From a virus, in IMG/VR virus record IMGVR_UViG_2811994897_000004: 36,047 nt of DNA. One strand, written 5' to 3'. A program made the translations under genes and the position numbers. The notes under the pieces were generated by a model. That model saw only the letters and a list, made by a program, of their open reading frames with translations, made no database searches and had not been told where the DNA came from. Each line of letters begins with the position of its first letter. The stretch's first letter is position 1. Shown piece by piece: positions 1 through 33,567 of the stretch.

Positions 1-141
1 ATACCAAATTGCATGTTGATATTCATTCAGTGTCAATCCAGCGCCACCTGCTTGTATTTGCACTAATAGCGCCCTTTTTTTATGATTAACATGTTTGCTA
101 CCATTAATCTCTCCAGCGTCTTTAAACACTGTTTTAAGCGC
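1..141. repeat. Terminal overlap, identical to 35907-36047 (circular contig closure)
   Basis: Base-by-base comparison: ataccaaattgcatgttgat...gttttaagcgc occurs at both window ends (141 nt). Confidence 0.95.
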
Positions 142-978
142 CTCTAACTCACTTTCAGTGTTATAGAATACAATCACACCATCTTGTTCGTACTCTTCTC
201 TAACGCTGTCTAACCACTCTAATTTCGCTTTTGTGTTTTGGTTCTGTCTTTGCCACCAATGACGTTCCATCGGGGTCTCAAACACAATCGCATCATCTTT
301 CTTATAATTAGGTAATGACTTTCTATACTCTGTTGACCGATTAAAGTCAATCGTTCTTTCAATAACGTCTGGTAATTCAGCAATGTCATCTAATTTAACC
401 ACATCAGACGTTACCGAATGCCACCATTCAACTAGTTGCGATTGGTTTTTGCCAACTTCCCAGAAAGGGAACGGACGATATGGCAACGTTTTCTGTACCA
501 TATATTTATCTTTAAACTCTTTGCGCGTTTTAACGTGACCAAACGCCAAGGCATAAGATTCCAAGTTGTCAAGTTTACCATCGATTGGTGTTCCTGTTAG
601 CATAACAAACCCAACTGCTCGTTTGATCAATGCAAGCAGCGCTTTCGTTCGCTGTGACTTAATTCCTTTGTATTTGTGTGCTTCATCAACAATCATAAAG
701 ACATCTTTCATGTCAAGCGGATTAATCTTTTTGACATCATCTGTTCTAATAACTTTAACCAACCGCTGATCAATGCCCATCGTTTCAAACGATTCTTGCC
801 AGCTTCCTGATAATTCAACTGCTTTGGGAGCTATCACTAATACTTTTTTTCCATGAAAGAATTTACGATAATGGCTTACAGCAACAAACGTCTTACCTGT
901 CCCTTGACGCATAACATAAAACCATTTTGGCTGCGCTTTATCTACTTGCTTTTGTTGTGCTGGATATAGCTTAATCAT
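1..978 (-). CDS. SNF2/DEAH-type helicase, N-terminal 326 codons (gene wraps the window edge; 3' part at 35736-35906)
   Basis: Own translation from ATG 978-976: MIKLYPAQQKQVDKAQPKWFYVMRQGTGKTFVAV... It has Walker A GTGKT, a DEAH box (VDEAH) and TGTP. The frame is open to base 1 and in phase with ORF 35736-36035 through the duplicated end. It is missing from the ORF track because it has no in-window stop. ATGA overlap with the VRR-NUC gene. Confidence 0.85.
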   Translation of the reverse strand, partial: MIKLYPAQQKQVDKAQPKWFYVMRQGTGKTFVAVSHYRKFFHGKKVLVIAPKAVELSGSWQESFETMGIDQRLVKVIRTDDVKKINPLDMKDVFMIVDEAHKYKGIKSQRTKALLALIKRAVGFVMLTGTPIDGKLDNLESYALAFGHVKTRKEFKDKYMVQKTLPYRPFPFWEVGKNQSQLVEWWHSVTSDVVKLDDIAELPDVIERTIDFNRSTEYRKSLPNYKKDDAIVFETPMERHWWQRQNQNTKAKLEWLDSVREEYEQDGVIVFYNTESELEALKTVFKDAGEINGSKHVNHKKRALLVQIQAGGAGLTLNEYQHAIWY

Positions 979-1295
979 ATCTCATCACCCTCATAAGTTA
1001 CCTCTAGCAAATCAATCCGCAAGAATTTCTCCCAACTATCAACCATGTACCACCTTCCGTTAAACAATTGAATCTTTTTCGCTTGGTACTTTTGCTCATT
1101 GGTAACACCATAGTTGCCAACGTGGTCAGGGCGCTTTAATTCAATACCGACAAGAACGCCTAAGTCATCAATCGTGATAATATCAGGCGTGCCTTTTGCC
1201 GTTCCTGATACACCGCCTTGTGTTTTGATGTAGAAACGCTTTTGCTCCTTTAAATAACGAGTTATTTTATTTTGCAACGTGCTTTCAAGCGTCAT
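975..1295 (-). CDS. VRR-NUC family nuclease
   Basis: 106 aa. GTPDIITIDD...GIELKRP fits the D...ExK core of VRR-NUC/PD-(D/E)xK. Start and stop overlap both neighbouring genes. Confidence 0.75.
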   Translation of the reverse strand: MTLESTLQNKITRYLKEQKRFYIKTQGGVSGTAKGTPDIITIDDLGVLVGIELKRPDHVGNYGVTNEQKYQAKKIQLFNGRWYMVDSWEKFLRIDLLEVTYEGDEI

Positions 1296-1752
1296 TTTCT
1301 ACAACCTCCGTCAGCTTATTGAGATACCACTGTGCCTTTTTTAAGTCTTCGACGCCATTTTTTGATTGGTATCTACCAACATATTTGATAATGTTAAGCT
1401 TCAAATATCCCCTAAATTCTTCATCAGTTGAATAACCTTGCATCGTGTCAATGACTTCACGACTAAACTGCTTGTAATGATTTGGGTGGTTGACAACGTC
1501 ATCTTGTTGCTTTTCTGTATATACATTAATTGGTTTATTATCCCATCCGATTAACTCAACACCTTCTTTAATTGCATAATCAATTGTGCACCACTGCCAT
1601 CCAAAATAATCATTATCTATGGTTAAACCAATTCCATCTTTATGAAATGATAAAATTGGTTGAATTAGTGAAAAAAGATCTTGCCTATCATTTTCTTTTA
1701 AAACTTCGTCCAATCTGTTACGTGTGTTGATATAATAATATTTCTTATCCAT
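1285..1752 (-). CDS. DUF3310-like phage protein
   Basis: 155 aa. The C-terminal NHPNHYK...IIKYVGRYQSKNGVEDLKKAQWYL matches the DUF3310 pattern as I remember it. SD AAGGAAG upstream. Confidence 0.65.
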   Translation of the reverse strand: MDKKYYYINTRNRLDEVLKENDRQDLFSLIQPILSFHKDGIGLTIDNDYFGWQWCTIDYAIKEGVELIGWDNKPINVYTEKQQDDVVNHPNHYKQFSREVIDTMQGYSTDEEFRGYLKLNIIKYVGRYQSKNGVEDLKKAQWYLNKLTEVVENDA

Positions 1753-1753
1753 T

Positions 1754-2098
1754 TTACTTACTTCCTTTCAAAATAACTGGATATTTATTCTTTTTATTGA
1801 ATATTAATGCAACGTGCTTTAATTCTCTATCTTGTGCAATAATACGTTTTAAACTGCCGACTTTGATAGAGTTTTCTAAATAGTTATAAACATAATCAGC
1901 TTGCTTTCCTACTTCATTTGCTATTTCTTTGTCGGTATAACCTGTATTATACATTTCTCTGATAACATTTTTAGTATCATCTTTTGTATATTTATGCTTT
2001 TCTTTATCAATTTTATTCATTTTTGACTGCATAAATTTGTTCGCGGATTCTTCGCCTTTCGTCTTCTCAATTAATAAAAACTGCGGTACAAAATTCAT
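1754..2098 (-). CDS. Small HTH DNA-binding protein (candidate transcription regulator)
   Basis: 114 aa. Helix-turn-helix-like segment GYTDKEIANEVGKQADYVYNYL. Confidence 0.6.
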   Translation of the reverse strand: MNFVPQFLLIEKTKGEESANKFMQSKMNKIDKEKHKYTKDDTKNVIREMYNTGYTDKEIANEVGKQADYVYNYLENSIKVGSLKRIIAQDRELKHVALIFNKKNKYPVILKGSK

Positions 2099-2274
2099 TT
2101 GAATCTACTCCCTTCAAATATCTTATATTGCCATTTTGGTGCATGTTGCTTTAACTGATTTAACTCCCAATCAGCGTCTATCCGATTGTATAGAACTTTG
2201 TCCATTGAAATCCAAGCGTCATGTGATCGTTTACGATAACCTATAATGAATATTTTTTTATCTGATATTAACAC
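2095..2274 (-). CDS. Hypothetical 59-aa protein
   Basis: Below the ORF-track cutoff. GTG start lies 6 nt after AAGGAG. Translation: MLISDKKIFIIGYRKRSHDAWISMDKVLYNRIDADWELNQLKQHAPKWQYKIFEGSRFK. Its stop overlaps the next ATG (ATGA). Confidence 0.5.
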   Translation of the reverse strand: MLISDKKIFIIGYRKRSHDAWISMDKVLYNRIDADWELNQLKQHAPKWQYKIFEGSRFK

Positions 2275-2275
2275 T

Positions 2276-2407
2276 TTATTCTCCTTTATACTCTGCTACG
2301 ACAATCGCATGTATATCTAGCCTATTTTTGTATTTCATTGCAGCTAGAAAATTTTCAAACGTTGCAATTGTTTTTCCTTTACTTCTGACGTCGTATACTA
2401 CTTTCAT
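2276..2407 (-). CDS. Hypothetical 43-aa protein
   Basis: Below the ORF-track cutoff. Translation: MKVVYDVRSKGKTIATFENFLAAMKYKNRLDIHAIVVAEYKGE. ATGA overlap with the upstream stop. It fills an otherwise empty gap in a tightly packed operon. Confidence 0.45.
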   Translation of the reverse strand: MKVVYDVRSKGKTIATFENFLAAMKYKNRLDIHAIVVAEYKGE

Positions 2408-2643
2408 TGTTGTTCCTCCTTAAATATATAAATAACGTCTACGCCTCTTATTGTCTCTCTGTGGACGTTTCCACGTTCAAACGCATCAATGTGTTCAAGC
2501 GCTTCCGAAATGTCTCTATCAGCCGTTTTGACACTAATAAGATGATTGTGTGCATATTCGTTACGTGATACAATCTTATCTTTTTTTAACGACTGGATTA
2601 ACTCTAATATTCTACCTGTTTTTTTCAACGATGTGTCCCCCAA
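2404..2643 (-). CDS. Hypothetical protein, possible winged-helix
   Basis: 79-aa ORF with no ATG. The more likely start is TTG at 2628, preceded by GGGGGA. ISVKTADRDISEALEHI is HTH-like. Confidence 0.5.
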   Translation of the reverse strand: MGDTSLKKTGRILELIQSLKKDKIVSRNEYAHNHLISVKTADRDISEALEHIDAFERGNVHRETIRGVDVIYIFKEEQQ

Positions 2644-2896
2644 TAATTGAGTAACCTAATTTACGTAACGTCCGCGACAATGTGTGCATATTAATATCTA
2701 ATTGTGCAGACATTAAGCGGACGTTTTTATTTCCTGTTTCTTTTATATGTCGCTTAACTAAATCTTCACGTTCATATACCGCTTGCTTTTGTTTCTTTGT
2801 TCGTTGCTTAAATGATCTGCGGTAACTTTCACTCAATCGTGCATTATTGACAAATTTATCGACTGGGGTGTCAACGTAGTTAAAATCATAATTCAT
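2612..2896 (-). CDS. Small HTH DNA-binding protein
   Basis: 94 aa. Basic N-terminal half, then an HTH-like segment VRLMSAQLDINMHTLSRTLRKLGY. Confidence 0.6.
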   Translation of the reverse strand: MNYDFNYVDTPVDKFVNNARLSESYRRSFKQRTKKQKQAVYEREDLVKRHIKETGNKNVRLMSAQLDINMHTLSRTLRKLGYSIIGGHIVEKNR

Positions 2897-2897
2897 A

Positions 2898-3149
2898 TTA
2901 ATCGATTTCCTTTTCTAAAATTCTAACGCCACATTCATACCAATGTCTACCAAAAGTATTTTTTACATAAATTAAAGCAGAAGAATAGTTATTAGTACAT
3001 GTAACGTATTTAAGATTACCGTTTTTCGGCTTATCTAACCCAACAACAACATATACCGTCGTTACAGCATTTTTGATATAATCAATCGTTTCTAATACTT
3101 CTTTTTGATAGTCTTCTTTACCACCATATTCATCAATATTCATGCTCAA
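2898..3149 (-). CDS. Hypothetical protein
   Basis: 83-aa ORF in the operon context. No recognisable motif. Confidence 0.55.
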   Translation of the reverse strand: MSMNIDEYGGKEDYQKEVLETIDYIKNAVTTVYVVVGLDKPKNGNLKYVTCTNNYSSALIYVKNTFGRHWYECGVRILEKEID

Positions 3150-3195
3150 TCTATCAATTATTTTTTAAAAGTCACTTTTGTTCATTTTAATATCC

Positions 3196-3633
3196 TCACA
3201 TTCCATAAACAATTAACGCGCTAGGGAACGGTGCTGCATCGCTTGCAAAACCGTCGACTTCAAATTTAAGTCTACCGCGTAAAAACTTAACCGTTGCCTT
3301 TCCTTGAATAAATTCATGCCAATACTTTGTATCTGTTCGTGCCGGTATTAGCAATACAATAAATCTGTTTTCGTCTCGTAAACTTTCTTCGTAAGCCTTT
3401 TGAATAAATCTACCGATGCTTCTACCATAAGGGGGATTAACAAACACGTTTCCGTTCCATTGTTGTTCAAGTGCGTTGTCTTTTTCAGTAAAATAATTAT
3501 TTACTTTATGATTATCGTCATCTGCACAAGCATCTAAATCAAACTTAAATTTTTTATTTAAGTTATTAAAAAATGTTTGTGGTGTCTCCCAGTTCATTTT
3601 TTCAGAACTGAATAAAGTTTTGTTAATTGTCAT
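3196..3633 (-). CDS. Phage Dam-type N6-adenine DNA methyltransferase
   Basis: 145 aa with the catalytic NPPY motif (VFVNPPYGR). Size and layout fit small phage N6-adenine methyltransferases. Confidence 0.85.
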   Translation of the reverse strand: MTINKTLFSSEKMNWETPQTFFNNLNKKFKFDLDACADDDNHKVNNYFTEKDNALEQQWNGNVFVNPPYGRSIGRFIQKAYEESLRDENRFIVLLIPARTDTKYWHEFIQGKATVKFLRGRLKFEVDGFASDAAPFPSALIVYGM

Positions 3634-3878
3634 AATAATATCTCCTGCATCGTTTCATCTGCATAAACAACATAGAAATGTTTATTTCCAAATAATCCGT
3701 TCAAAACCATTCTAGCAATTTGTGTAGCGTATTTCGGTTTTAAATATTCTTGATCGTAATTTTTATAATAACTTCTATTTTCGATTGTGAATGACTTATG
3801 CAAAAATGTCATTTCAATATTATCAACCATATACCATGCGTCATTTAAGCGTACTGCGTAACCTGTAATTTTTGTCAT
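3630..3878 (-). CDS. Hypothetical protein
   Basis: ORF 3630-3899. The preferred start is ATG 3878 (MTKITGYAV...), preceded by GAGGAAG and 1 nt after the upstream stop. Confidence 0.6.
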   Translation of the reverse strand: MTKITGYAVRLNDAWYMVDNIEMTFLHKSFTIENRSYYKNYDQEYLKPKYATQIARMVLNGLFGNKHFYVVYADETMQEILL

Positions 3879-3879
3879 G

Positions 3880-3978
3880 TTATTCTTCCTCATCTTCATC
3901 TTCGTAATCCCAAAAGTGTTCTTCTTCTTTTGATCTTGGTTCGTATGGTTCTGGTAATTCTATTGTGTGTTCAAACAT
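3880..3978 (-). CDS. Hypothetical 32-aa acidic peptide (first gene after the early promoter)
   Basis: MFEHTIELPEPYEPRSKEEEHFWDYEDEDEEE. ATG follows SD AAGAGG. Below the ORF-track cutoff. Confidence 0.4.
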   Translation of the reverse strand: MFEHTIELPEPYEPRSKEEEHFWDYEDEDEEE

Positions 3979-4013
3979 TATTGACCTCTTTTCTGTTCGT
4001 TTGCTATGAATAC

Positions 4014-4073
4014 ATCTTACCAACTTGGACATTTTTTGTCCAGAATATAAAACGTTCTTAAGACTTTCTTAAA
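4014..4073 (-). promoter_or_regulatory. Early promoter with TTAAG direct repeat and a palindromic operator
   Basis: Minus strand: TTTAAGAAAGTCTTAAG (4057-4073), -35 TGGACA (4037-4042), 17-nt spacer, -10 TAAGAT (4014-4019). The perfect palindrome TGGACA-AAAAA-TGTCCA (4026-4042) overlaps the -35. Confidence 0.55.
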
Positions 4074-4100
4074 CTTTGTAACACAAACACAAAAAAAATA

Positions 4101-4330
4101 GAGTTCAAATTAGAAAAAATGTGTAGAAATTAGAAGTGAGTGAATTTAACAATTGCCATAATCACTCTCATAAAACTACTATAAACCTTATATATATAAT
4201 AAACACAACAATAATGTTGTTATAGTTATATTGTAGTAATTAGAGAAATTAGAAAAATTAGAGTTTTTGGTAGTTAGTTGTTTTTTTATATATAGTATAG
4301 GGTCGTCTAATTTCTAATTTCATGAATTCT
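4101..4330. repeat. Control region A: AATTAGA iteron cluster, an inverted paralogue of region B
   Basis: Forward AATTAGA at 4108, 4128, 4238, 4247 and 4256 (the last three at 9-bp spacing). Reverse TCTAATT at 4306 and 4313. It aligns with the reverse complement of 28608-28866 through shared blocks AATTAGAnAAATTAGAnAAATTAGAGTTTTT, GGTAGTTA, TCTAATTT, CATGAATT and ATAAACCnTATATATATAA. Confidence 0.85.
4238..4296 (+). promoter_or_regulatory. Plus-strand copy of the putative late promoter (iterons, -35 and -10), facing the end of the late operon
   Basis: Three 9-bp iterons (4238-4262), TTGGTA (4267-4272), 18-nt spacer, TATAGT (4291-4296). Homologous to the minus-strand element 28654-28719. Confidence 0.35.
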
Positions 4331-4341
4331 CTTATTGCAAT

Positions 4342-4371
4342 AAAATAAAAAGGCACCCAATCGGATGCCTT
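4342..4371 (-). terminator. Rho-independent terminator of the late operon (possibly bidirectional)
   Basis: Minus strand: AAGGCAtccgattgggTGCCTT followed by TTTTTATTTTATT, starting 8 nt after the endolysin stop. Confidence 0.8.
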
Positions 4372-4378
4372 AATTATT

Positions 4379-5257
4379 TTATACCAAACCAAACTTTTTG
4401 ATTAATGATTCTGTGTTGCGCTTTGTCATAACTGTAAATGGCACACCTTGCTTTTGCAAGTTACCCATTGTAACAGGACTGTCAACTTTAATCACAGCCG
4501 TTCCTGTTTGCAAGAACACATTTGCAGCATCCCCAAATTCTGTATTGATGTCTGATTTAAATAGTAACATATCGTCTTCTCCTTTGACGCTAACCAGCGC
4601 CTCGTCATTGTTGTCTTCATTTCCTTGTCCACCAATCGCAAGCCATGCGCTGTGGTCTCCGTAAAATACACTGCGATCCCAAGGTACACTATCAAATTGC
4701 CACATAGCTACATTAATGCCGTTGTAAGATTGATTGCTGAAGTAATTCGCGTCAGCCCATGATTGTAACGCTTGTGTGTATGGGCTGCCATCGTTGCTTG
4801 GATAACCAGCCACCCAAAATGGATATTTGCCAGCAACGTCAGACCAATTATAAGCGCCGCTGACGACATCTTGGTGCCCGATGTATAAAATACCGTCCTT
4901 TCCTGTTAACGCACTTATACGGTCTAAGAATACCTTTGGTTCGTCTCCTGTGATAGAAGGATAACCTTGTGGACGTTCAAAATCAAATATAGGTACAATT
5001 CCTGGCGTATCTAGATAAGATTTTGCATTGTTGTAAAAATAATCCGCTTGGGCTGTTGTGTCAATCGTCCCAACAACGAAATGATAAACACCGATGAGCT
5101 TGTTTTTACTCTTGGCATAATCTATTTGTTCGTTGGCTAACGGATTAATATAGCTAACGCCCTCACTGATTTTAACAATTGCAATATCAGCACCGTCTAT
5201 GGCTGTTTGATAATTTGATGCGTTGTTGTCTGAAACATCAACCGCAATTAATGACAT
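4379..5257 (-). CDS. Endolysin, GH25 muramidase with a C-terminal putative wall-binding region
   Basis: 292 aa. The N-terminal 200 aa look like GH25 lysozyme (IAVDVS..., IAIVKISEG, GVYHFV). Last gene of the late operon, directly after the holin genes. SD GGAAGGAG. Confidence 0.8.
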   Translation of the reverse strand: MSLIAVDVSDNNASNYQTAIDGADIAIVKISEGVSYINPLANEQIDYAKSKNKLIGVYHFVVGTIDTTAQADYFYNNAKSYLDTPGIVPIFDFERPQGYPSITGDEPKVFLDRISALTGKDGILYIGHQDVVSGAYNWSDVAGKYPFWVAGYPSNDGSPYTQALQSWADANYFSNQSYNGINVAMWQFDSVPWDRSVFYGDHSAWLAIGGQGNEDNNDEALVSVKGEDDMLLFKSDINTEFGDAANVFLQTGTAVIKVDSPVTMGNLQKQGVPFTVMTKRNTESLIKKFGLV

Positions 5258-5258
5258 A

Positions 5259-5681
5259 TTAAACTCCTTCCGTTTCTCCTTCGATAAGTTGATTAGATGT
5301 TAACTTGTCGTTATTTGCGTCTGGTTTGACGTCTAACGGACTTTGTGGCTTAACTGTATCTAACTTACCATCTGCCTTATTAGAAGCGTAAGCGCTCTTT
5401 ATATAGGCTAGTATTTGATCTTCTGTAAACTTGTCGCCAATGCCTGACTTGTCTAAACGATTTTTTAAGTCAGCTGCTGCGACTTGTTGTTGTTGTAATC
5501 CACCACCAAAAATTTGTTGTGCTGTTAATACAGCTTGACTAGCAAATTCAAGTGCTGACTTGATATGCTCATTTCGTGTGATAGACTTTGCTTTAATCAA
5601 ATATTTTGATAATGCGTAACCACCACCAGAAACGGCAATAACCTCAACAGCAACCTGCGCCCAATTTAGTAATTCATTCAT
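5259..5681 (-). CDS. Holin-like protein (LL-H-type: one N-terminal TM and a long charged tail)
   Basis: Preferred start is ATG 5681 (MNELLNWAQVAVEVIAVSGGGYAL...), overlapping the upstream stop. Immediately upstream of the endolysin. Confidence 0.6.
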   Translation of the reverse strand: MNELLNWAQVAVEVIAVSGGGYALSKYLIKAKSITRNEHIKSALEFASQAVLTAQQIFGGGLQQQQVAAADLKNRLDKSGIGDKFTEDQILAYIKSAYASNKADGKLDTVKPQSPLDVKPDANNDKLTSNQLIEGETEGV

Positions 5682-6141
5682 GTTTATTTCTATCCTTTTC
5701 TGCCGAGTTCGGCTCTTCACTAATGTACTGTATTTTTACATGGAACTCATCTTCTATCCACTTAGCAAAAAACTTAGGGACATACATTCCTGCTAGTTTC
5801 ATGTTTGCTAAAATTGATTTCAATAAATAATTTGCAACCGTTACTGTTATCGCAAAACTAACGAAATCAAATAGCATGGGAGAATATATAACATCCCTAC
5901 CACCAATGTGAGTAGGTGCAATAGACATGACAATCGTGATTACCCATATTAACACTGGCAAGAAAGCTAACGGCAGAGATCGTCTTAGTCCGCCCAAACC
6001 ACCGTCTGAAGTTCTTGCTACACCTTTGTTTTTTCGCCACCTGCTGCCTAAGAATGTGTCATAAAAAATAAGTATAAATAATAGAATGCTTTCCGTCATA
6101 CCATTTAAATTTGCGAACAAATACTTTAAAATATCTTCCAT
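5674..6141 (-). CDS. Multi-TM holin-like membrane protein
   Basis: 155 aa with 3-4 hydrophobic segments (SILLFILIFYDTFLG, LAFLPVLIWVITIVMSIA, FDFVSFAITVTVANYLL). Position in the lysis cassette. TAATG overlap with the upstream gene. Confidence 0.6.
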   Translation of the reverse strand: MEDILKYLFANLNGMTESILLFILIFYDTFLGSRWRKNKGVARTSDGGLGGLRRSLPLAFLPVLIWVITIVMSIAPTHIGGRDVIYSPMLFDFVSFAITVTVANYLLKSILANMKLAGMYVPKFFAKWIEDEFHVKIQYISEEPNSAEKDRNKHE

Positions 6142-6401
6142 TACATTGTTCCATCCACCATATTTTTTTCTAAATCAGATGATGCCACGATTTCTTTTAC
6201 TTTAGCAATTGCTTTTTGTTTTAAGTCATCTGTTTTTGACTGGAAAGTAACGCCATCATCTTTCGCGGTTAACAATACTTGACCGCTGAAGTAGTTTCTG
6301 TCATCGCTTCTGAAATCAACTACAATTGTCACTGAATCAATCTCTAAACCGTTAGCGCCATCAACCATACTTCTGTTTGTAATTTCTGCTGTTGCTATCA
6401 T
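6141..6401 (-). CDS. Hypothetical protein (between fibre and lysis genes)
   Basis: 86-aa ORF with SD TAAGGAG. Confidence 0.6.
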   Translation of the reverse strand: MIATAEITNRSMVDGANGLEIDSVTIVVDFRSDDRNYFSGQVLLTAKDDGVTFQSKTDDLKQKAIAKVKEIVASSDLEKNMVDGTM

Positions 6402-6410
6402 ATTATCTCC

Positions 6411-8081
6411 TTAATCAAATGTAAGCCAAGTCGCATTAACATGTATTTCATTGTTAGATGGCTGAACATATGTTCCGTTGTTACTATATGCCGAAAATTC
6501 AAAGTGTCCATCTGGATAAAACTCCCCAAGATAATTGTAACCATAAGCACCAGCTTGTCTTGTTCCAAACTGATTAGATGGTTTGAATCCTTGTGGAATT
6601 GTAAATGCAGTTGTTATTGCATCCTTGTTCAAAATAGTATTTGGTAACATCCTACCGGTTAATGAAACCATGTTACCGACACGCGTTAATACAAGCGGAA
6701 CACTAGCTGCTGTAAATCCGTTTTGAAAGTTTACAGTAGCCGTTGTCTTTGGTTGAACGATATTGCTACCAAATGTCTTAACACCGTTTATTGTTTCGTT
6801 TCCTGAATTATGAACTACTGATTCATTAACTGCAAATGAGTTCCAAGAACCTAGTGTACCTGAACCAACAGTAGAGATGAACTGTCCCTGCCAATTACTG
6901 TTAAATGGTGTAACTATAATATATCCAGAACCACCATCGCTAATTCCTGATGTTACGACAACAGAATAATAGGAGTTTACAGGGGAGTTTTTTATTGTAG
7001 TATTTCTAACAAACCAAATACCAGCATACTTAATCATATTTTTAGCTACATCAATAAAATCTGTGAACTGTGCTTCTCTAGCGGATAACGAACCATTAAT
7101 CGGTGAAGTGAATGTTTTATTACCGTTGATTGTCTCATTTCCATTGTTGTGAACGACGGTTGCGTCTTTTGCGAATTTTTGCCACGTTTGTTGAACCGTA
7201 ATAATATTTTTATCATCTCGAGATAGAATTGCAAAAAACTTATTTCCTGTTGCATGCTCTGTTAAAACTAATTTAGTCCCAGCCCAGCTATTAGTGGTAT
7301 ATCCTGACAAATCATAAGTCATTAGTCCAAAAGCAAGGGTTACTCCGTTCGGAACATTTTTTAGTGTAGATGTTGTCGCAACGTTTTGTGAAATATAGTT
7401 AAAACCAGGCTCTATAACAGTATATAAATCCGTCCCGCTAGATAATATTTTATTTGAAAATTTACCATTTATTGCTAGTGAGAATGTATTGTTACCAGAC
7501 CAAGTATTATCAGAAATTTTAATATTATTATTTTGAGATTTTAACTGATTGACATTAGTATTTAAATCGTCTACGTTTGTTTGAACGGTATTAGCTTGTG
7601 ATTGTGTATTAGTTAAAGTTGTTTGCGTATCAGCTAATTTGTTATCCATATCTGTTTTGATTTTATCAATCATCACATCAACAACAGAAATATAATTACC
7701 TGCTTCTTCTTCTGTTAAATCAACAGCTTCAAATACTTTGACGCGGAAATTAGCTCCTGACGCAGATTGGTCGTCTTTACTAAATTTAAAGTACGCTTTG
7801 CTAAACTCACCAATATCTTGACCCCAAGCTTTGGTTGGTGTGTAGGTAAATACACCTTGTTGTGTATTGTCTACTTGAACATTTGCATCAACTATTTTAT
7901 GGTTACCAGCAGTAGTACCCATAAAAGCAGTTGTCCATCCAGTTAAGTCAAGTGGTTCGCCGTTACTCGTTACCGTGACCGTCAATGATTGATAATTGCC
8001 GTCACCTTGTCGCAGCTCAACCATTGGGTTTTGAAACTCTGATTTAGTTGTATCAATATTTAAAACTAAACCTTTAGCCAT
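6411..8081 (-). CDS. Receptor-binding tail fibre or baseplate upper protein (BppU-like N-terminus)
   Basis: 556 aa. The N-terminal about 120 aa resemble the BppU/DUF2479 attachment domain. A Q/N/T-rich coiled segment follows. The fibre motif recurs: TWSGNNTFSLAING, VVHNNGNETINGNKTFTSPING, VVHNSGNETINGVKTFGSNIV. Confidence 0.7.
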   Translation of the reverse strand: MAKGLVLNIDTTKSEFQNPMVELRQGDGNYQSLTVTVTSNGEPLDLTGWTTAFMGTTAGNHKIVDANVQVDNTQQGVFTYTPTKAWGQDIGEFSKAYFKFSKDDQSASGANFRVKVFEAVDLTEEEAGNYISVVDVMIDKIKTDMDNKLADTQTTLTNTQSQANTVQTNVDDLNTNVNQLKSQNNNIKISDNTWSGNNTFSLAINGKFSNKILSSGTDLYTVIEPGFNYISQNVATTSTLKNVPNGVTLAFGLMTYDLSGYTTNSWAGTKLVLTEHATGNKFFAILSRDDKNIITVQQTWQKFAKDATVVHNNGNETINGNKTFTSPINGSLSAREAQFTDFIDVAKNMIKYAGIWFVRNTTIKNSPVNSYYSVVVTSGISDGGSGYIIVTPFNSNWQGQFISTVGSGTLGSWNSFAVNESVVHNSGNETINGVKTFGSNIVQPKTTATVNFQNGFTAASVPLVLTRVGNMVSLTGRMLPNTILNKDAITTAFTIPQGFKPSNQFGTRQAGAYGYNYLGEFYPDGHFEFSAYSNNGTYVQPSNNEIHVNATWLTFD

Positions 8082-8206
8082 TATTTACCTTCTTTTTCTT
8101 TTTCACGATATGAATCAATTAATACTTCATACTGTGCAATGACAAGTGTCATATTAGCGTTTTGTTGCAATAACTTTTGAATGACTTTTTCATTATCTGG
8201 TTGCAT
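8081..8206 (-). CDS. Hypothetical 41-aa protein
   Basis: Below the ORF-track cutoff. AGGAG lies 7 nt before the ATG. Translation: MQPDNEKVIQKLLQQNANMTLVIAQYEVLIDSYREKEKEGK. TAATG overlap with the fibre gene start. Confidence 0.45.
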   Translation of the reverse strand: MQPDNEKVIQKLLQQNANMTLVIAQYEVLIDSYREKEKEGK

Positions 8207-8208
8207 AA

Positions 8209-8424
8209 TTATTCTCCTAACTTAGTTGATAACATACTCTTTGAAATTTCATCAGCAATACGATCAAGCTTTTGTTGACCAGTCATATTTAACCAGTCAG
8301 CACGGCTAATAACAACTGTTCCTGTCTCGATTGACGTTCCGGATTCAAAGGTAACACCAAACACCAACTTAACTGTCTGTGTATCAGCATCCGGAATCTC
8401 ATTTTTCATTTGAATATTGTTCAT
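8209..8424 (-). CDS. Hypothetical tail-associated protein
   Basis: 71-aa ORF with ATGA overlap with the Tal stop. Confidence 0.6.
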   Translation of the reverse strand: MNNIQMKNEIPDADTQTVKLVFGVTFESGTSIETGTVVISRADWLNMTGQQKLDRIADEISKSMLSTKLGE

Positions 8425-25630: not shown

Positions 25631-25680
25631 ATAATATCATTTATGATTGGGGATGTATAGTAGCTTAACTATTTCTTAAC
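25631..25680 (-). promoter_or_regulatory. TTAAG-type promoter cassette
   Basis: GTTAAGAAATAGTTAAG (25664-25680), then 27 nt, then extended -10 TGATATTAT (25631-25639). Confidence 0.5.
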
Positions 25681-26888: not shown

Positions 26889-26937
26889 ATTATAACAAAT
26901 AAAAAAGCGCTAATGTGCGCCTTAATACTTTCTTAAC
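26889..26937 (-). promoter_or_regulatory. TTAAG-type promoter cassette
   Basis: GTTAAGAAAGTATTAAG (26921-26937), then 26 nt, then extended -10 TGTTATAAT (26889-26897). Two further TTAAG pentamers lie in the 5' UTR (26877-26889). Confidence 0.5.
26901..26920 (-). terminator. Weak hairpin plus T6 between the operator and the -10
   Basis: GCGC(acatta)GCGC followed by TTTTTTATTT. The stem is only 4-5 bp. Confidence 0.3.
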
Positions 26938-27127: not shown

Positions 27128-28336
27128 TCACACATAATATTCTGCAATCAATTCCGTTTCTGAAAATTCTAACATGTACAACGTTTTCTTTGACAACGTC
27201 CAACCATTTGATATTTCATACTTGTCGTTTGGTTTTACGGTCCCAAATTGTTGCCAAATCACACCACCTTCGTCAGTTGTCTTTTGCGTATGATAATGAC
27301 CTGTATGGATATAACGTTGTTTAGCACCTGCCCATACCATTCCAAACTCATTGGCGAATAACATTGGAAGCCCTTTTCGTGCAAAATCGCCATGCGCATT
27401 CATGATTCCAATTTGTCCAAGCAAGTAGGCATCACGATACTTAATATTGTTTTTAATTGTCACGTCTGGGTATTTCGCCTTTAAATATTCCATGAACATG
27501 TATTCCATGTTTCCAGAATGATTGCCAGCCATTTGACGAATAATAACATGTTTACTCCCTTGCAACATGCTAAGTAAGACGTCAAAGAACGTTTTCGCAT
27601 CTTCCACAGCCTGAACCATGTTTACTTCATCTAGCATTGTGCCACGCATTGTTTGCGTTGTCCACATCTGACTTGAATGAAACAAATCTCCAAGTTGTTC
27701 AATAACGACCGTGTTATACCCTTTATTGACGATATTAGCAATCTTATGCAAATGAATCTCCATATCGGCAATAGTTGTGATACCAAAATGCAAATCAGCT
27801 AAAGGAATAACCAAGTTACTTTTTTGCCCGTTATCTTTAAAGTCAAAGTGAATGGGTTTAATTTCTTCACGTAATCTACTTAATGCTTTATCAAAATTAC
27901 CAGCCTTTGGCTTAACAGTAATCTTTGATTGATACAAATCTTTTGTGCCGTGTTCTGCACTGCCTTGTTGCCAGAAGTTAGATACCGCATTAGTGATTTC
28001 CCACTCATCAGGATTATAGCCATGAGCGATTAGTAAATATTCTGGATCTTTTTCCTGTCCATCGCGCATTTCAATCACGGTTGTATGTGTCTGGTTGCCG
28101 TTTTTATCAATCACAAGGTTGACATCATTTGATGTTTCCTCTGTCTTGTCGAAGTCATAGCCTTCTTTTTCCAATTGACGTCTCAAGATAACGCCACGTT
28201 CGCCAGTAATGATACGTCGCATATATCTGTATTTCATATCGACACCAAACTTATCATAAACTAATCCAATAATTTGTTTTGTTGTTGCGCCTTGCTTGTG
28301 CTTATCAAGGATAAATATAAGAATCTCTTTTGTCAT
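27128..28336 (-). CDS. HTH domain fused to a calcineurin-like metallophosphoesterase (Mre11/SbcD-type motifs)
   Basis: 402 aa. The N-terminal about 50 aa are HTH-like (GATTKQIIGLVYDKFGV). All metallophosphoesterase motifs are present: LADLHFG, LGDLFHS, AGNHSG, NAHGD, HTGHYH. Confidence 0.75.
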   Translation of the reverse strand: MTKEILIFILDKHKQGATTKQIIGLVYDKFGVDMKYRYMRRIITGERGVILRRQLEKEGYDFDKTEETSNDVNLVIDKNGNQTHTTVIEMRDGQEKDPEYLLIAHGYNPDEWEITNAVSNFWQQGSAEHGTKDLYQSKITVKPKAGNFDKALSRLREEIKPIHFDFKDNGQKSNLVIPLADLHFGITTIADMEIHLHKIANIVNKGYNTVVIEQLGDLFHSSQMWTTQTMRGTMLDEVNMVQAVEDAKTFFDVLLSMLQGSKHVIIRQMAGNHSGNMEYMFMEYLKAKYPDVTIKNNIKYRDAYLLGQIGIMNAHGDFARKGLPMLFANEFGMVWAGAKQRYIHTGHYHTQKTTDEGGVIWQQFGTVKPNDKYEISNGWTLSKKTLYMLEFSETELIAEYYV

Positions 28337-28595: not shown

Positions 28596-29041
28596 TTTTA
28601 TTCTCCTTAAATTCATGAAATTCGTAAAATGCGTAAAATTAGAAATTCGCGACTTAATACAATAATAAATAAATAACTACCAAGTACGAAAAACTCTAAT
28701 TTCTCTAATTTTTCTAATTGCCCCCAGAAACTAGGCTATAAACTACTTTTATTAAACGCTATATATAATCTAACATAACTATGATTGTTGTTATATATAT
28801 AGGGTTTATGGTTATTAGTGTTAGTGATTGTTTTACCAGAAACGTTGATTTTTGGGGGCAATTAGATATTTTCTAATTCTAGCTAAATATTTCTAATTGC
28901 AACTCGTTATATATTTCATTTGTGTTACATTGATTAAATTAACGTGAGTTTATTTGTTTTTGGCGTTAGTTATTTAATCGATATATCATATAAAATATTA
29001 AATTGTTTATTTAATTGTGTATCCAATTATATTTTCTAATT
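28596..29041. repeat. Control region B: AATTAGA iterons, nested inverted repeats and an AT-rich tract (putative late promoter and/or origin)
   Basis: TCTAATT at 28695, 28704 and 28713 (9-bp spacing), and at 28872, 28892 and 29035. AATTAGA at 28637 and 28860. A perfect 14-bp inverted repeat, TCTAATTGCCCCCA (28713-28726) with TGGGGGCAATTAGA (28853-28866). Inner inverted repeat CTATATATAA/TTATATATAG. No ORF. Confidence 0.85.
28654..28719 (-). promoter_or_regulatory. Putative late promoter with three upstream 9-bp iterons
   Basis: Minus strand: AATTAGAAAAATTAGAGAAATTAGAG-TTTTTCGTAC-TTGGTA (28678-28683), 18 nt, TATTAA (28654-28659), then the 5' UTR and AAGGAG of the 52-aa gene. Confidence 0.4.
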
Positions 29042-29245: not shown

Positions 29246-31168
29246 TTACAACTTAAATTGTTTGCGCAGCTTTGTTTTGTTTTCTTCACGCAACCCAGAA
29301 TGATCAATCAATTCGTTCATAAAGTCTGTATCGCCTGTTTCTTGCTTAATAACCATCAACGCCCAGTAAGCTTTGCTTTCACGCGTACCGTCAATTGCGT
29401 TTTGAACCGTACGGATAAGTGAACGCTTATTATTGTTACTCATTTCGCTTATTTCTTCCGTTTTAAGTGTGTTGTTGACAACCTGTACATTTGTACCGCC
29501 AACAAAGAATCTGTGTTCTACCGGCAAACCAGAGCGGTCATACGGCTCATCAATCTTTAATGCCAGTCGCTTAACCAATTCAGCGTATTCTTCTAAATCT
29601 CCTCCGACACGATAGAACCAAACACGTGCGTGTATGTCTGCTGGTGTACTACTTGATGTTTCCCATACCACCGCAGACAATCCAGTCAATCGCACCTTTT
29701 CGACCAACTTATCAAATGACGAGGCGTTAGCGCCATCAATATCAATCACAACACCAATAAATCCAGTAACGTTTTCCTTTTTTATTTCATCGTGGAATAT
29801 CGCTGTACTAAATAACGGTTGCTTATCTTTCTCAATCTTGCCAAACTCTAACACATCTTTTGCAAACTCTTCAGGCGTTTCAAAGTTTCGTTCGCCAATT
29901 ACCTTGTGTAAGTCTTCAAACGCTGCAAATGTCAACTTTTCTGACTGATATGGCTGGTCTATAACTCCCGTGGCGTCCTTATAACCATAAATTGTTTCTC
30001 CATGAACAGTGACATTGCCAATCTTCCAACCAGCTTTTTCAGCGGCAGCCTTAACTGTTTTCTTATCAAACGTTGACACTAGTTCCTTATTAGCAACAAC
30101 ACCACGTGCACGGACAAAGTTAATCACGTTATCACGCTCATCTTCAATTACGTCTGACCAATCGTTATGCCAATCAAATAGCTTTGTTTCGTCTGTGTTT
30201 ACATAAGATAAGATTGATTGCGGATCAAGGTTGTGTAAGTGATTGAATTCTGCTTGCGTGAACAACTCTTCAACCGACTTGTCGAGTTTAATAAAGATAA
30301 CACGCTTATTGTTTTGTGGGTTCTTTAGAAACGCTGGTGCAGAGTTTAAAGCCACAACAGATGAACCGTTATACACTTCTGACCAACGTTGCCCACCACC
30401 ACGAGCTAGCTGTTGTGGCATATTGTTAGACATAAAGTTCTTCAAGTAATCTTCATTTAATTGACGGTTAGGGTCATCATCATCAAGCAAGACAACAAAT
30501 CGTTCAATCACATCAGCGTTCCAGTTCGCTGCATCAAATCCATTTTCAGGTCTGTTTTGCTTAAAAGCGGCAGCTGCTTCATACAACTTACCGATTGCTT
30601 CCAAGACGATTGACTTACCAGTTGATGCGGCGACACCAAAAATTAAATGCTTACGAATACCATGCGTTTGGTTGTCAAATGGGTATTTCATAATATCAGA
30701 CCAAACGTTTTCATAAGTCTGTGACTCTAATACTTCAATAAAACGTTCAAGAATAGGGTCGCGCTTTGTTGCAAGCCTATTTTCTTCATCACGATGGAAG
30801 TCGAATATATTTTCAACTGGCGCAACAGCATATTTGACAATGTCTTGTACAAGCTCTGTTGACGCTTCTAAGCGCTTTTGGTTTGTCTCCCCTATGTTCT
30901 TTCTGATAGCTTCTCCAATCTCGTTATAAGAGTAGCTGATGTCTGTTCCTGATATATTAAAGTCAAACACGAATGACTTGTATAAACTAGCCAAACGTTT
31001 AATTTCAATATTTTTTAACAAGTCGAACACATTCATTTCTGCTGGACTTAACGGTACTGAACGATCATTCCATGCCATCGCGATTGCCTTAATCGAACGT
31101 AGTGACATCAAAGGTATTGATTTTTCTCTTTTTAAATCATTTTTTAGGATATAAAGATTGTTAGTCAT
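29246..31168 (-). CDS. Replicative primase-helicase-like protein (central P-loop NTPase, C-terminal primase-polymerase-like domain)
   Basis: 640 aa. Walker A GVAASTGKS and Walker B VVLLDDDD near aa 180-250. C-terminal GVVIDIDG ... WETSSSTPADIHARVWF looks like the DxD and sxH motifs of archaeo-eukaryotic primase folds. Confidence 0.65.
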   Translation of the reverse strand: MTNNLYILKNDLKREKSIPLMSLRSIKAIAMAWNDRSVPLSPAEMNVFDLLKNIEIKRLASLYKSFVFDFNISGTDISYSYNEIGEAIRKNIGETNQKRLEASTELVQDIVKYAVAPVENIFDFHRDEENRLATKRDPILERFIEVLESQTYENVWSDIMKYPFDNQTHGIRKHLIFGVAASTGKSIVLEAIGKLYEAAAAFKQNRPENGFDAANWNADVIERFVVLLDDDDPNRQLNEDYLKNFMSNNMPQQLARGGGQRWSEVYNGSSVVALNSAPAFLKNPQNNKRVIFIKLDKSVEELFTQAEFNHLHNLDPQSILSYVNTDETKLFDWHNDWSDVIEDERDNVINFVRARGVVANKELVSTFDKKTVKAAAEKAGWKIGNVTVHGETIYGYKDATGVIDQPYQSEKLTFAAFEDLHKVIGERNFETPEEFAKDVLEFGKIEKDKQPLFSTAIFHDEIKKENVTGFIGVVIDIDGANASSFDKLVEKVRLTGLSAVVWETSSSTPADIHARVWFYRVGGDLEEYAELVKRLALKIDEPYDRSGLPVEHRFFVGGTNVQVVNNTLKTEEISEMSNNNKRSLIRTVQNAIDGTRESKAYWALMVIKQETGDTDFMNELIDHSGLREENKTKLRKQFKL

Positions 31169-33517: not shown

Positions 33518-33567
33518 ATGATAACAACTAGGTAAAACAATAACAAGTGTCTTAACATTTTCTTAAC
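33518..33567 (-). promoter_or_regulatory. TTAAG-type promoter cassette
   Basis: GTTAAGAAAATGTTAAG (33551-33567), 4 nt, -35 TTGTTA, 17 nt, extended -10 TGTTATCAT (33518-33526). Confidence 0.55.

What the first reader, a model, noticed from the sequence alone, without database searches (positions are those of the whole stretch)
4090..4378. Control region A is an inverted paralogue of region B, so a late-promoter copy points against the end of the late operon
About 230 bp of region A align with the reverse complement of region B. Shared blocks are CAATCACT, ATAAACCnTATATATATAA, CAACAAT, the triple iteron AATTAGAnAAATTAGAnAAATTAGAGTTTTT, GGTAGTTA, TCTAATTT and CATGAATT. The homology therefore covers iterons, -35, -10 and the start of the 5' UTR.

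All genes are on one strand, so the copy in A faces the opposite way. On the plus strand it reads TTGGTA, 18 nt, TATAGT (4267-4296). It would transcribe about 75 nt into the endolysin terminator hairpin (4350-4371), convergent with the late operon.

Possible roles:
- A co-regulated antisense or insulator RNA that stops late read-through into the early promoter on the circular or concatemeric template.
- A second, inverted origin.
- A recombination scar marking a module boundary.

The two copies bracket the entire 24-kb late module.
Basis: partly seen in the sequence, partly recalled or inferred. Interest (0 to 1): 0.68.

Follow-up and report, generated by a model that had tools for sequence, protein, structure and literature searches.

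The report
Duplicated, inverted phage replication-origin module
Two gene-free stretches of this uncultured lactic-acid-bacteria phage are mirror-image copies of one repeat-studded, easily melted DNA module, most likely a replication origin present twice, as already known from phages SPP1 and P4, and not a backwards late promoter.

Summary
Region A (4033-4378, after the endolysin gene) aligns with the reverse complement of region B (28617-29041, after the primase-helicase gene). The local score is 89, against 25 +/- 3 (maximum 44) for shuffles. Fifteen of the 20 AATTAGA heptamers in the window lie in these 0.77 kb.

Six related genomes show the same inverted A/B pair. They use three different heptamers (AATTAGA, ATATGAA/AATAGRA, AACTCGT), and A and B of one genome always share the type.

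Every copy has the same layout:
- 2-3 left iterons
- a (TA)4-5 block
- three direct iterons at an 8-9 nt period
- a 46-58 nt AT-rich spacer
- two inverted iterons

A and B hold the least stable DNA of each genome. B abuts an SF3-type primase-helicase gene. The protein's predicted winged helix is its most variable domain and changes with iteron type.

This fits a SaPI/P4-type iteron origin present twice, as with SPP1 oriL/oriR. The true early promoter (4014-4072, minus strand) lies outside the module.

No transcript or replication data could be obtained. This is a new member of a known kind, of moderate interest.

The parts
4078..4328 (+). Module copy A. It reads on the plus strand, which is inverted relative to the genes.
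   Evidence: Aligns with rc(B). The same layout is seen in 16 copies from 9 lineages.
4108..4134 (+). Left-arm iterons of A: AATTAGA at 4108 and 4128.
   Evidence: In the close variants L031 and L033 the spacer between the two heptamers changes while the heptamers are kept.
4181..4204 (.). Central (TA)5 block of A (ATAAACCTTATATATATAATAAAC). It is a candidate DNA-unwinding element.
   Evidence: TATATATA is the best-conserved block across all 16 copies. 4168-4267 is the least stable 100-nt window of the genome.
4218..4226 (+). TGTTATAGT, an extended -10-like element pointing at the iteron core.
   Evidence: Found at the same alignment column in 8 of 16 copies. Function untested.
4238..4262 (+). 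Three direct AATTAGA iterons at a 9-nt period.
4263..4305 (.). AT-rich spacer between the direct and inverted iterons.
   Evidence: The spacer is 46-58 nt in all copies. No conserved -35/-10 pair was found there.
4306..4319 (-). Two inverted iterons (TCTAATT TCTAATT on the plus strand).
4350..4371 (-). Intrinsic terminator of the endolysin gene.
   Evidence: 9 pairs followed by a T-run, on the minus strand only.
4014..4072 (-). Early promoter: TTAAGAAAGTCTTAAG, then TGGACA-17-TGgTAAGAT. It lies outside the inverted module.
   Evidence: It is one of five such units, all on the gene strand. Homologous units sit before the first early gene in L044, L046 and L048.
28628..28928 (-). Module copy B. 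It reads on the gene strand.
28695..28719 (-). Three direct AATTAGA iterons of B.
28637..28643 (+). Inverted iteron of B, about 20 nt before the ribosome-binding site of the 59-aa ORF.
28791..28809 (.). Central (TA)n block of B.
   Evidence: 28736-28835 is among the three least stable 100-nt windows of the genome.
28860..28898 (.). Left-arm iterons of B: 28892 and 28872 on the minus strand, 28860 on the plus strand.
29246..31168 (-). 640-aa primase-helicase, the candidate initiator.
   Evidence: PHROG 17236 'DNA primase', E 6e-98. DUF5906 matches at aa 178-279 but scores below Pfam's cut-off.
29978..30139 (-). Codons 344-397 of the primase-helicase: predicted winged helix, the candidate iteron reader.
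   Evidence: AlphaFold2 gives the topology H-E-H-H-E-E with pLDDT 61-84. It is the most divergent domain and varies with iteron type.
27128..28336 (-). 402-aa protein: an N-terminal HTH joined to an Mre11/SbcD-like phosphoesterase. It is the alternative candidate iteron reader.
   Evidence: PHROG 704, E 4.9e-80. It is the first conserved gene after B in every genome. Its N-terminal approximately 50 aa are hypervariable and type-specific.

Best explanation
**What it is.** A and B are two copies of one roughly 250-300 bp iteron module that serves phage DNA replication.

**Proposed working (inferred).**
- A phage-encoded sequence-specific protein binds the short heptamer iterons. These flank two very AT-rich segments.
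- The favoured candidate is the winged helix that follows the SF3-type ATPase core of the 640-aa primase-helicase encoded next to B.
- Binding melts the AT-rich DNA and the helicase loads itself. Staphylococcal pathogenicity-island (SaPI) Rep proteins do this at origins directly 3' of their genes, and phage P4 alpha protein does it at ori.
- B is the origin attached to its initiator gene.
- A, about 11 kb away on the circle, is a second copy of the whole module. It would act as a second origin, as an initiator-bound partner or enhancer (like P4 crr), or as a fork barrier that triggers the switch to concatemer synthesis (as proposed for SPP1 oriR).
- An extended -10-like element inside the module points at the iteron core. 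It may activate the origin by transcription. In B it may also feed the downstream genes.

**Shown here.**
- The inverted paralogy.
- Its conservation in 7 genomes.
- Three heptamer types, always matched between A and B of one genome.
- The common layout of all copies.
- Minimal duplex stability in A and B.
- Adjacency of B to the primase-helicase gene.
- The variable predicted winged helix.

**Inferred only.** Protein binding, the identity of the binding protein, origin firing, and the role of the second copy.

**Orientation.** The inverted orientation is probably not essential. The distant relative phiJL-1 carries an analogous pair in direct orientation.
For: 1. A against rc(B) scores far above shuffles in the window and in six related genomes: 60-160 against shuffle maxima of 35-46, z = 9-46. 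Forward alignments are near chance.
2. The heptamer differs between lineages but is always the same in A and B of one genome:
   - AATTAGA in the window and L005-L007
   - ATATGAA/AATAGRA in L004, L044 and L046
   - AACTCGT in L048 and L170-L172
3. In the AACTCGT group A and B are only 44-56% alike overall, yet they share the heptamer. This argues for selection by a trans-acting reader and not for simple gene conversion.
4. In the close variants L031 and L033 the spacers change while the heptamers do not.
5. All 16 copies share one layout: left iterons, a (TA)4-5 block, three direct iterons at an 8-9 nt period, a 46-58 nt AT-rich spacer, and inverted iterons.
6. A and B contain the least stable 100-nt DNA windows in the window and rank at or near the top in every relative.
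7. B lies directly after the stop codon of the primase-helicase gene in L007, L044, L046, L048 and L170-L172. In the window a 64-aa NUMOD-like ORF intervenes.
8. The primase-helicase has an invariant Walker A motif and a DUF5906 match. A winged-helix topology is predicted at aa 344-397 with pLDDT 61-84.
9. That domain is 28% identical between the window and the ATATGAA-group proteins, although the adjacent ATPase core is 80% identical. It is 45% identical to L007, which shares the window's heptamer.
10. The putative recognition helix reads KxxVKxA in the lineages with TTAGAA-type heptamers, including phiJL-1. It reads KxM(Q/R)DY in the other two groups.
11. L044 and L046 have the same heptamer type in A and B and 93-100% identical winged helices. 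Their HTH-phosphoesterase N-termini are only 32% identical.
12. Published precedents:
   - SaPI origins lie immediately downstream of rep, with 6-12 short iterons on both sides of an AT-rich centre pointing in opposite directions. They are read by a winged helix of a self-loading SF3 helicase (PMC9371898).
   - SPP1 has two similarly organised origins 12-13 kb apart on the circle, bound by one protein (PMC6316719, PMC3485210).
Against: - There is no direct evidence of replication, protein binding or transcription.
- The full primase-helicase model is poor (mean pLDDT 45). The Foldseek search with the winged-helix model gave only non-significant hits (best E 0.14), although the top hits are winged-helix regulators. 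The DUF5906 match is below Pfam's cut-off.
- The link between winged helix and heptamer rests on only three or four lineage groups. The domain evolves fast in general.
- The primase-helicase gene and B are physically linked, so part of the correlation is inheritance.
- The N-terminal HTH of the phosphoesterase gene next to B also shows type-specific recognition-helix motifs. Window and L007 match at 9 of 14 positions, and phiJL-1 is similar. The reader protein is therefore not settled.
- Promoter-like elements occur inside the module, and B directly precedes a ribosome-binding site. A transcriptional role is possible as well or instead.
- Skew at four-fold degenerate sites gives no clear origin signal.
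Confidence: 0.58

Rival explanations
1. Operator-promoter cassette. The heptamers would be binding sites of a phage transcription factor. In B the three direct repeats would sit upstream of an activator-dependent promoter for the downstream (middle or late) genes, as the direct repeats do at the Alt-dependent late promoter of lactococcal phage TP901-1 (own knowledge). The inverted copy in A would then give a co-regulated antisense or insulator RNA ending at the endolysin terminator.
For: - A plus-strand TTGGTA-18-TATAGT exists in A.
- An extended -10-like TGtTATAGT is conserved in 8 of 16 copies and points the same way.
- B ends about 20-45 nt before a ribosome-binding site and start codon.
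- No terminator is predicted after the primase-helicase gene, and no TTAAG-type promoter occurs between B and 26936.
- Two HTH proteins specific to the window's early region are candidate regulators: 79 aa at 2404-2643 and 114 aa at 1754-2098.
- The plus-strand RNA 4228-4385 would fold well (z = -3.5).
Against: - The -35/-10 pair is not conserved across copies or heptamer types. B of this very window has no scanner-positive promoter there.
- The module-to-terminator distance varies from about 50 to about 300 nt.
- The heptamers occur only in A and B and at none of the five recognisable promoters.
- The good fold of the antisense RNA follows trivially from the inverted iterons.
Confidence: 0.22
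2. Target sites of the HTH-Mre11/SbcD-like nuclease. The protein encoded just after B would read the heptamers with its N-terminal HTH. It would then cut or process the DNA there, possibly at the hairpin or cruciform that the direct and inverted iterons can form. This would create ends for recombination-dependent replication or concatemer formation.
For: - The gene is the first conserved gene after B in all genomes.
- Its N-terminal domain has been swapped independently of the nuclease body. L046 against the AACTCGT group is 26-34% identical in the N-terminus and 77% in the body.
- The recognition-helix motif YR(Y/Q)MRR is shared by the window and L007, and a similar HYRQRH occurs in phiJL-1, which has GTTAGAA iterons.
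- In phiJL-1 one module copy lies directly after the homologous gene.
- The iteron arms can pair.
- The phage carries a full recombination set: a PD-(D/E)XK nuclease, an AAA_24 protein, a DUF669 protein and a VRR-NUC-like endonuclease.
Against: - L044 and L046 share the heptamer type, but their HTH domains are only 32% identical.
- There is no Pfam hit and no solved relative for the HTH part.
- The periods of the direct (8-9 nt) and inverted (7-8 nt) repeats do not match, so the hairpin would be imperfect.
Confidence: 0.12
3. Non-functional recombination scar or module-boundary homology that is merely inherited.
For: - A and B sit at module boundaries (lysis/early and replication/packaging).
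- Relatives are mosaic around them.
Against: - The pair is kept in 7 genomes whose shared proteins are only about 40-80% identical.
- The heptamer type is matched between copies even where the rest of the module has diverged to about 50%.
- Heptamers are preserved while spacers vary.
Confidence: 0.03

Closest known systems
SaPI / PICI pri-rep-ori replicons (self-loading SF3 helicase Rep or PriRep with a winged-helix domain; PMC9371898)
   Same: - The origin lies directly 3' of the initiator-helicase gene.
- Short iterons (here 7 nt, in SaPIs 5-6 nt) lie on both sides of an AT-rich region, with at least two on each side in opposite orientation.
- Primase and helicase are fused, as in PriRep5.
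- A winged helix follows the ATPase core.
- Iteron sequence differs between lineages.
   Different: - No detectable sequence similarity to solved Rep proteins.
- The winged helix lies mid-protein, with about 240 further residues after it.
- The module is larger and asymmetric, with an extra left arm and a (TA)n block.
- It is present twice in the genome.
- The element is a virulent siphophage, not a satellite.
Bacillus phage SPP1 oriL / oriR (PMC6316719, PMC3485210)
   Same: - A siphophage with genes on one strand and headful-type packaging genes.
- Two origin-like sequences of similar organisation (repeats plus an AT-rich unwinding element) about 12-13 kb apart on the circle, here about 11 kb.
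- One copy lies in or next to the initiator gene and the other in or at the end of the late region.
- The phage also has a recombination gene set.
   Different: - SPP1 uses gp38 plus a loader and a DnaB-type helicase. This phage has an SF3-type primase-helicase.
- oriL lies inside gene 38.
- I could not establish the relative orientation of the two SPP1 origins from the papers read.
- Here the whole ~280-bp module is duplicated.
Satellite phage P4 ori and crr, bound by alpha protein (own knowledge; not found in the paper library)
   Same: - A primase-helicase of the same broad class reads short iterons with a winged helix.
- The iterons occur at two separate places, both needed in cis in P4.
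   Different: - In P4 alpha the winged helix is C-terminal.
- crr is not a full copy of ori.
- No sequence similarity was shown here.
Non-coding origin elements downstream of the primase gene in Streptococcus thermophilus phages such as Sfi21 (own knowledge: Foley et al. 1998; not retrieved)
   Same: - A lactic-acid-bacteria siphophage.
- A similar replication gene order: helicase, AAA_24 protein, DUF669 protein, primase.
- A repeat-rich non-coding stretch right after the primase gene.
   Different: - Only a single copy is described, as far as I know.
- The sequences were not compared here.

Membership tests
SaPI/PICI-type Rep-ori replicon | The initiator is a superfamily-3 (D5/P4-like) self-loading helicase. 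| tested here: inconclusive
   DUF5906 matches aa 178-279 with E 4.6e-5 and 24.5 bits, below the cut-off of 27.6. The Walker A residues are invariant in 14 homologues. PHROG 'DNA primase' matches with E 6e-98. There is no sequence hit in the PDB, and the full model is poor.
SaPI/PICI-type Rep-ori replicon | A winged-helix DNA-binding domain lies after the ATPase core. | tested here: inconclusive
   AlphaFold2 gives H-E-H-H-E-E at aa 344-397 with pLDDT 61-84 in two runs. The top Foldseek hits are winged-helix regulators, but the best E-value is 0.14.
SaPI/PICI-type Rep-ori replicon | The origin lies immediately downstream of the initiator gene. | tested here: met
   B starts at the stop codon of the primase-helicase gene in L007, L044, L046, L048 and L170-L172. 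In the window it lies 204 nt further on, after a 64-aa NUMOD-like ORF.
SaPI/PICI-type Rep-ori replicon | Several short iterons lie on both sides of an AT-rich region, with at least two on each side in opposite orientation. | tested here: met
   Three direct and two inverted heptamers flank a 46-58 nt AT-rich spacer, with 2-3 more beyond a (TA)n block. This holds in all 16 copies. B of this window has only one exact inverted heptamer.
SaPI/PICI-type Rep-ori replicon | Initiator and iterons are cognate, so specificity changes together. | tested here: inconclusive
   The winged helix is the most divergent domain, and the putative recognition helix groups with heptamer type. But there are few independent lineages, the gene and B are linked, and a second candidate reader exists.
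SaPI/PICI-type Rep-ori replicon | The element supports initiator-dependent replication. | not testable with these tools
Two-origin phages (SPP1 oriL/oriR type) | Two separate sequences of like organisation (repeats plus an AT-rich element) occur in one genome. | tested here: met
Two-origin phages (SPP1 oriL/oriR type) | Both copies are bound by the same origin-binding protein. | not testable with these tools
   Only inferred, from the shared heptamer type.
Two-origin phages (SPP1 oriL/oriR type) | A gp38-type replisome organiser with a DnaB-type helicase and loader. | not tested
   None of the 20 proteins scanned was annotated in this way, but no dedicated search was made. The replication set here is of a different type.
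   No promoter call at that position in B. No recurrent -35/-10 at that column in the 16 copies. The conserved box there is TTG-N4-5-GG(G).

The most novel reading that the evidence does not exclude
The two mirror-image modules could be a two-part replication switch and not merely redundant origins. One initiator, whose specificity has been re-set at least three times in this clade, would fire one copy. Bound at the oppositely oriented copy, it would act as a polar fork trap. The HTH-Mre11-like nuclease encoded next to B would then convert the stalled fork into the double-strand end that starts concatemer synthesis. That would give a sequence-defined, portable theta-to-sigma switch in an SF3-helicase phage.
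Probability: 0.08. Interest if true: 0.75.

Novelty: new member of a known kind. Interest (0 to 1): 0.45.

Why it matters
- **Origin prediction.** This gives a concrete, testable origin prediction for an uncultured clade of siphophages of lactic acid bacteria from fermented plant material. The terminase large subunit is only about 61% identical to Weissella phages and the primase-helicase about 31% to Coetzeevirus.
- **Annotation of a cultured phage.** The cultured phage phiJL-1 has an unannotated pair of the same kind.
- **Recognition-helix-to-iteron relationship.** Three heptamer specificities sit on one conserved scaffold, with a small variable winged helix. This makes a natural series for working out the relationship.
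- **Phage-resistance tools.** Cloned origins of dairy and fermentation phages have been used as phage-resistance devices by origin titration (own knowledge). The modules are therefore candidate tools for starter-culture protection.
- **A caution.** Promoter-like hexamers in AT-rich origin spacers are easily over-read.

Tried and rejected
- **BLASTN against phage records.** 3900-4600 gave no match.
- **Triple-iteron pattern scan of viral contigs.** Only two unrelated hits.
- **Shorter iteron pattern scan of metagenome contigs.** 120 loci were returned, none related to the window by blastn or tblastn. That scan was wasted.
- **Rfam on the whole window.** Nothing at gathering score.
- **Full-length primase-helicase model.** Mean pLDDT 45, usable only for aa 344-400.
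- **Foldseek with the winged-helix model.** No significant hit.
- **PDB sequence searches with the primase-helicase and the phosphoesterase.** Nothing useful.
- **Profile-based search of viral contigs for more primase-helicase relatives.** The same 16 loci came back.
- **Search for a protein present only in phages with one heptamer type.** No whole protein fits. Only sub-domains do.
- **Skew at four-fold degenerate sites.** All positive on the gene strand. It steps from 0.055 to 0.27 across A, but this is about 2 standard errors and is confounded by module origin. Inconclusive.
- **Packaging (pac/cos) site.** Rejected. The small terminase gene lies 2 kb away, and two inverted pac sites make no sense.
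- **Invertible segment.** Rejected. There is no recombinase, all assemblies are colinear, and the near-identical stretch is only about 31 nt.
- **Small ORFs in A and B.** None credible.
Full report
**Setting**

The window is a complete circular phage contig. Bases 1-141 repeat at 35907-36047, so the unit length is 35,906 bp. All plausible genes lie on the minus strand.

Read along the gene strand, the order is:
- region A (4378 to 4033)
- small early genes, a Dam methylase and a DUF3310 protein
- a VRR-NUC-like nuclease and an SNF2 helicase
- a PD-(D/E)XK nuclease, an AAA_24 protein and a DUF669 protein
- a 640-aa primase-helicase
- a 64-aa NUMOD-like ORF
- region B (29041 to 28617)
- a 59-aa ORF and a 402-aa HTH-Mre11/SbcD-like phosphoesterase
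- terS, terL, portal, head and tail genes
- holin and a GH25 endolysin, then back to A

These assignments rest.

The nearest cultured phages are distant. TerL is about 61% identical to Weissella phages WC29P3 and WCP30. The primase-helicase is about 31% identical to Coetzeevirus phiJL-1 and its relatives. Near-identical contigs occur in several fermentation-type metagenomes.

- The two longest inverted repeats in the window both link A and B and are colinear.
- A against rc(B) gives a strict local alignment of 94 columns at 79.8% identity (4238-4328 with 28628-28719), score 89. Dinucleotide shuffles give 25.3 +/- 3.3, maximum 44. The forward alignment scores 43.
- A permissive alignment carries the homology over 4047-4328.
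- AATTAGA occurs 20 times in the window, 15 of them in A and B.

**Comparative test**

I used homologues of the SNF2 helicase, which lies between A and B. This fetched six related genomes that span both regions: L044, L046, L048, L170, L171 and L172. Their shared proteins are about 40-80% identical to the window's.

- In every one, the region after the endolysin aligns with the reverse complement of the region after the primase-helicase gene. Scores are 60-160 against shuffle maxima of 35-46 (z = 9-46). Forward alignments are near chance.
- The repeated heptamer is not the same everywhere:
  - AATTAGA in the window and the L005-L007 lineage
  - ATATGAA/AATAGRA in L004, L044 and L046
  - AACTCGT in L048 and L170-L172
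- A and B of one genome always carry the same heptamer.
- In the AACTCGT group A and B are otherwise only 44-56% alike, no closer than to other phages' modules. The shared heptamer is therefore not just a by-product of copy homogenisation.
- In two close variants of the window's own A (L031, L033), seven substitutions fall between the two left-arm heptamers and none inside them.

Both are clearly failed, so the feature is real and conserved.

**Anatomy**

I oriented all copies as B lies on the gene strand. All 16 copies from 9 lineages then share one layout:
1. A TTTGTAACA..AATGAAATA box.
2. Two or three heptamers 65-110 nt left of a (TA)4-5 block.
3. The (TA)4-5 block itself (TATATATATAATAAA), the best-conserved element.
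4. In 8 of 16 copies a TGtTATAGT extended -10-like element.
5. A G-rich box followed by three direct heptamers at an 8-9 nt period.
6. A 46-58 nt T/A-rich spacer ending in TTG-N4-5-GG(G).
7. Two inverted heptamers.

In B the ribosome-binding site of the next gene follows. In A the same end faces the endolysin terminator.

A and B contain the three least stable 100-nt windows of the whole genome. They rank at or near the top in every relative as well.

- The plus-strand TTGGTA-18-TATAGT (4267-4296) is real as a string, but it sits in the AT-rich spacer (element 6).
- Its counterpart in B does not pass the same scan.
- No -35/-10 pair recurs at that column among the 16 copies.
- The distance from the module to the endolysin terminator is about 50 nt here and roughly 150-300 nt in relatives.
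- The hairpin at 4350-4371 is called a terminator only on the minus strand.
- The phage's recognisable promoters are five TTAAG-N6-TTAAG units, each followed 27-37 nt later by TGnTAnnAT and a TCATAG-like start region.
- One of these units (4072-4014) is the early promoter of A. It lies outside the inverted module. Homologous units precede the first early gene in the relatives.
- The 50-aa ORF at 3880-4032 starts inside that promoter and is probably not a gene.

**Who reads the heptamers?**

B abuts the primase-helicase gene in all relatives. The protein has an invariant Walker A motif and a sub-threshold DUF5906 (D5-like SF3 NTPase) match at aa 178-279.

The full AlphaFold2 model is poor (mean pLDDT 45). 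Residues 344-397, however, fold with pLDDT 61-84 into the helix-strand-helix-helix-strand-strand order of a winged helix, in two independent runs. Foldseek finds only non-significant matches. The top ones are winged-helix regulators.

Identity of the window's protein, by domain:

| Domain | vs ATATGAA group | vs L007 (same heptamer as window) |
|---|---|---|
| N-terminal | 73% | 54% |
| ATPase core | 80% | 62% |
| Winged helix | 28% | 45% |

The putative recognition helix reads K-x-x-V-K-x-A in the window, in L007 and in the distant phiJL-1 group. The phiJL-1 heptamer GTTAGAA differs from ATTAGAA by one base. The helix reads K-x-M-(Q/R)-D-Y, with one residue deleted, in the other two groups.

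- It is hypervariable and has been swapped independently of the nuclease body.
- It shows type-specific motifs.
- L044 and L046 share heptamer type and winged helix (93-100% identical) but have only 32% identical HTH domains. This mildly favours the primase-helicase.

No whole protein is specific to one heptamer type.

**Interpretation**

The combination matches the published description of SaPI origins and their Rep/PriRep proteins (PMC9371898):
- short iterons on both sides of AT-rich, easily melted DNA, in opposite orientation
- a position directly 3' of a fused primase/SF3-type helicase gene
- a winged helix after the ATPase core

From my own knowledge it also resembles P4 alpha with ori and crr.

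A second copy elsewhere in the genome is the SPP1 situation. There oriL and oriR have like organisation and lie 12-13 kb apart on the circle. Both are bound by gp38, and oriR is proposed to stall forks and trigger the theta-to-sigma switch (PMC6316719, PMC3485210).

I therefore read B as the origin attached to its initiator gene. I read A as a second origin, or as an initiator-bound partner.

The inverted orientation is probably not essential. phiJL-1 carries two paralogous GTTAGAA modules (about 5930-6185 and 29995-30245) in direct orientation. Their forward alignment scores 78, against shuffles of 24.8 +/- 3.2 (maximum 39) and a reverse score of 33. Weissella phage WC29P3 shows only direct intergenic repeats.

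Earlier notes of this scan report similar duplicated iteron origins beside primase-helicase genes in other phages. They agree with this reading but are not independent evidence.

**Limits**

- Nothing here shows binding, melting, initiation or transcription.
- A transcriptional role, and an antisense RNA from A, remain possible (confidence about 0.2). So does a role as target of the HTH-nuclease (about 0.1).
- Skew analysis was inconclusive.

Noticed in passing
window 1-141 and 35907-36047: A perfect 141-nt terminal overlap. The contig is a closed circle of 35,906 bp, and the SNF2 helicase gene runs across the junction.
   Followed up: yes
window 35716-35732, 33550-33566, 26920-26936, 25663-25679, 4056-4072 (minus strand): Five TTAAG-N6-TTAAG units, each followed 27-37 nt later by an extended -10 (TGnTAnnAT) and a TCATAG-like start region. 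All five are on the gene strand. They are probably the phage's standard promoters with an upstream element or activator site.
   Followed up: partly
window 3880-4032 (minus strand): The start codon of this 50-aa ORF lies between the -35 and -10 of the early promoter. Gene callers on near-identical contigs instead-aa and 82-aa ORFs. It is probably not a gene.
   Followed up: partly
window 29042-29236; L048 12338-12802; L170 11454-11918; L171 17596-18135; L172 12671-13460: NUMOD/HNH homing-endonuclease genes or remnants are repeatedly inserted right beside region B. In the window the remnant is a 64-aa NUMOD-like ORF between the primase-helicase gene and B. The origin flank looks like a preferred landing site.
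   Followed up: no
L036 (phiJL-1, NC_006936) 5930-6185 and 29995-30245: The cultured Lactiplantibacillus plantarum phage phiJL-1 has two unannotated paralogous GTTAGAA iteron plus (TA)n modules in direct orientation. One lies between the phosphoesterase gene and terS. The other lies before the helicase and primase genes. GTTAGAA clusters also lie upstream of the primase gene in related viral contigs L008, L009, L013 and L014.
   Followed up: partly
window 27128-28336 and homologues: The N-terminal HTH (about 50 aa) of the Mre11/SbcD-like phosphoesterase has been exchanged independently of the nuclease body. L046 against the AACTCGT group is 26-34% identical in the N-terminus but 77% in the body. 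The window against L044 is 28% and 65%.
   Followed up: partly
window 29246-31168: The primase-helicase is mosaic. The N-terminal and ATPase parts are closest to the L004/L044/L046 lineage. Residues about 341-480 are closest to the L007 lineage.
   Followed up: yes
L003 3341-3640 (IMGVR_UViG_3300043413_000021, 56 kb): An unrelated viral contig carries more than 20 AATTAGA units at the same 9-nt period, in a higher-order 36-nt repeat. Nearby are an HTH protein and a protein with a DnaA domain-IV-like signature (DHTTIINSIKRA). It is probably that phage's own origin. The shared heptamer looks coincidental.
   Followed up: no
L044 6543-6600 and 17222-17279: A promoter-like unit (GACGTTTTAAA..TTG.GTATAAATACAT) occurs in direct orientation both upstream of module A and downstream of the first gene after B. 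In some relatives, gene-strand transcription therefore enters module A from the endolysin side.
   Followed up: no
window 4379-10000 versus 1-4032: G-C skew at four-fold degenerate sites on the gene strand falls along the late region from 0.20 to 0.055, then jumps to 0.27 just past region A. This is about 2 standard errors and may reflect module origin and not replication.
   Followed up: partly
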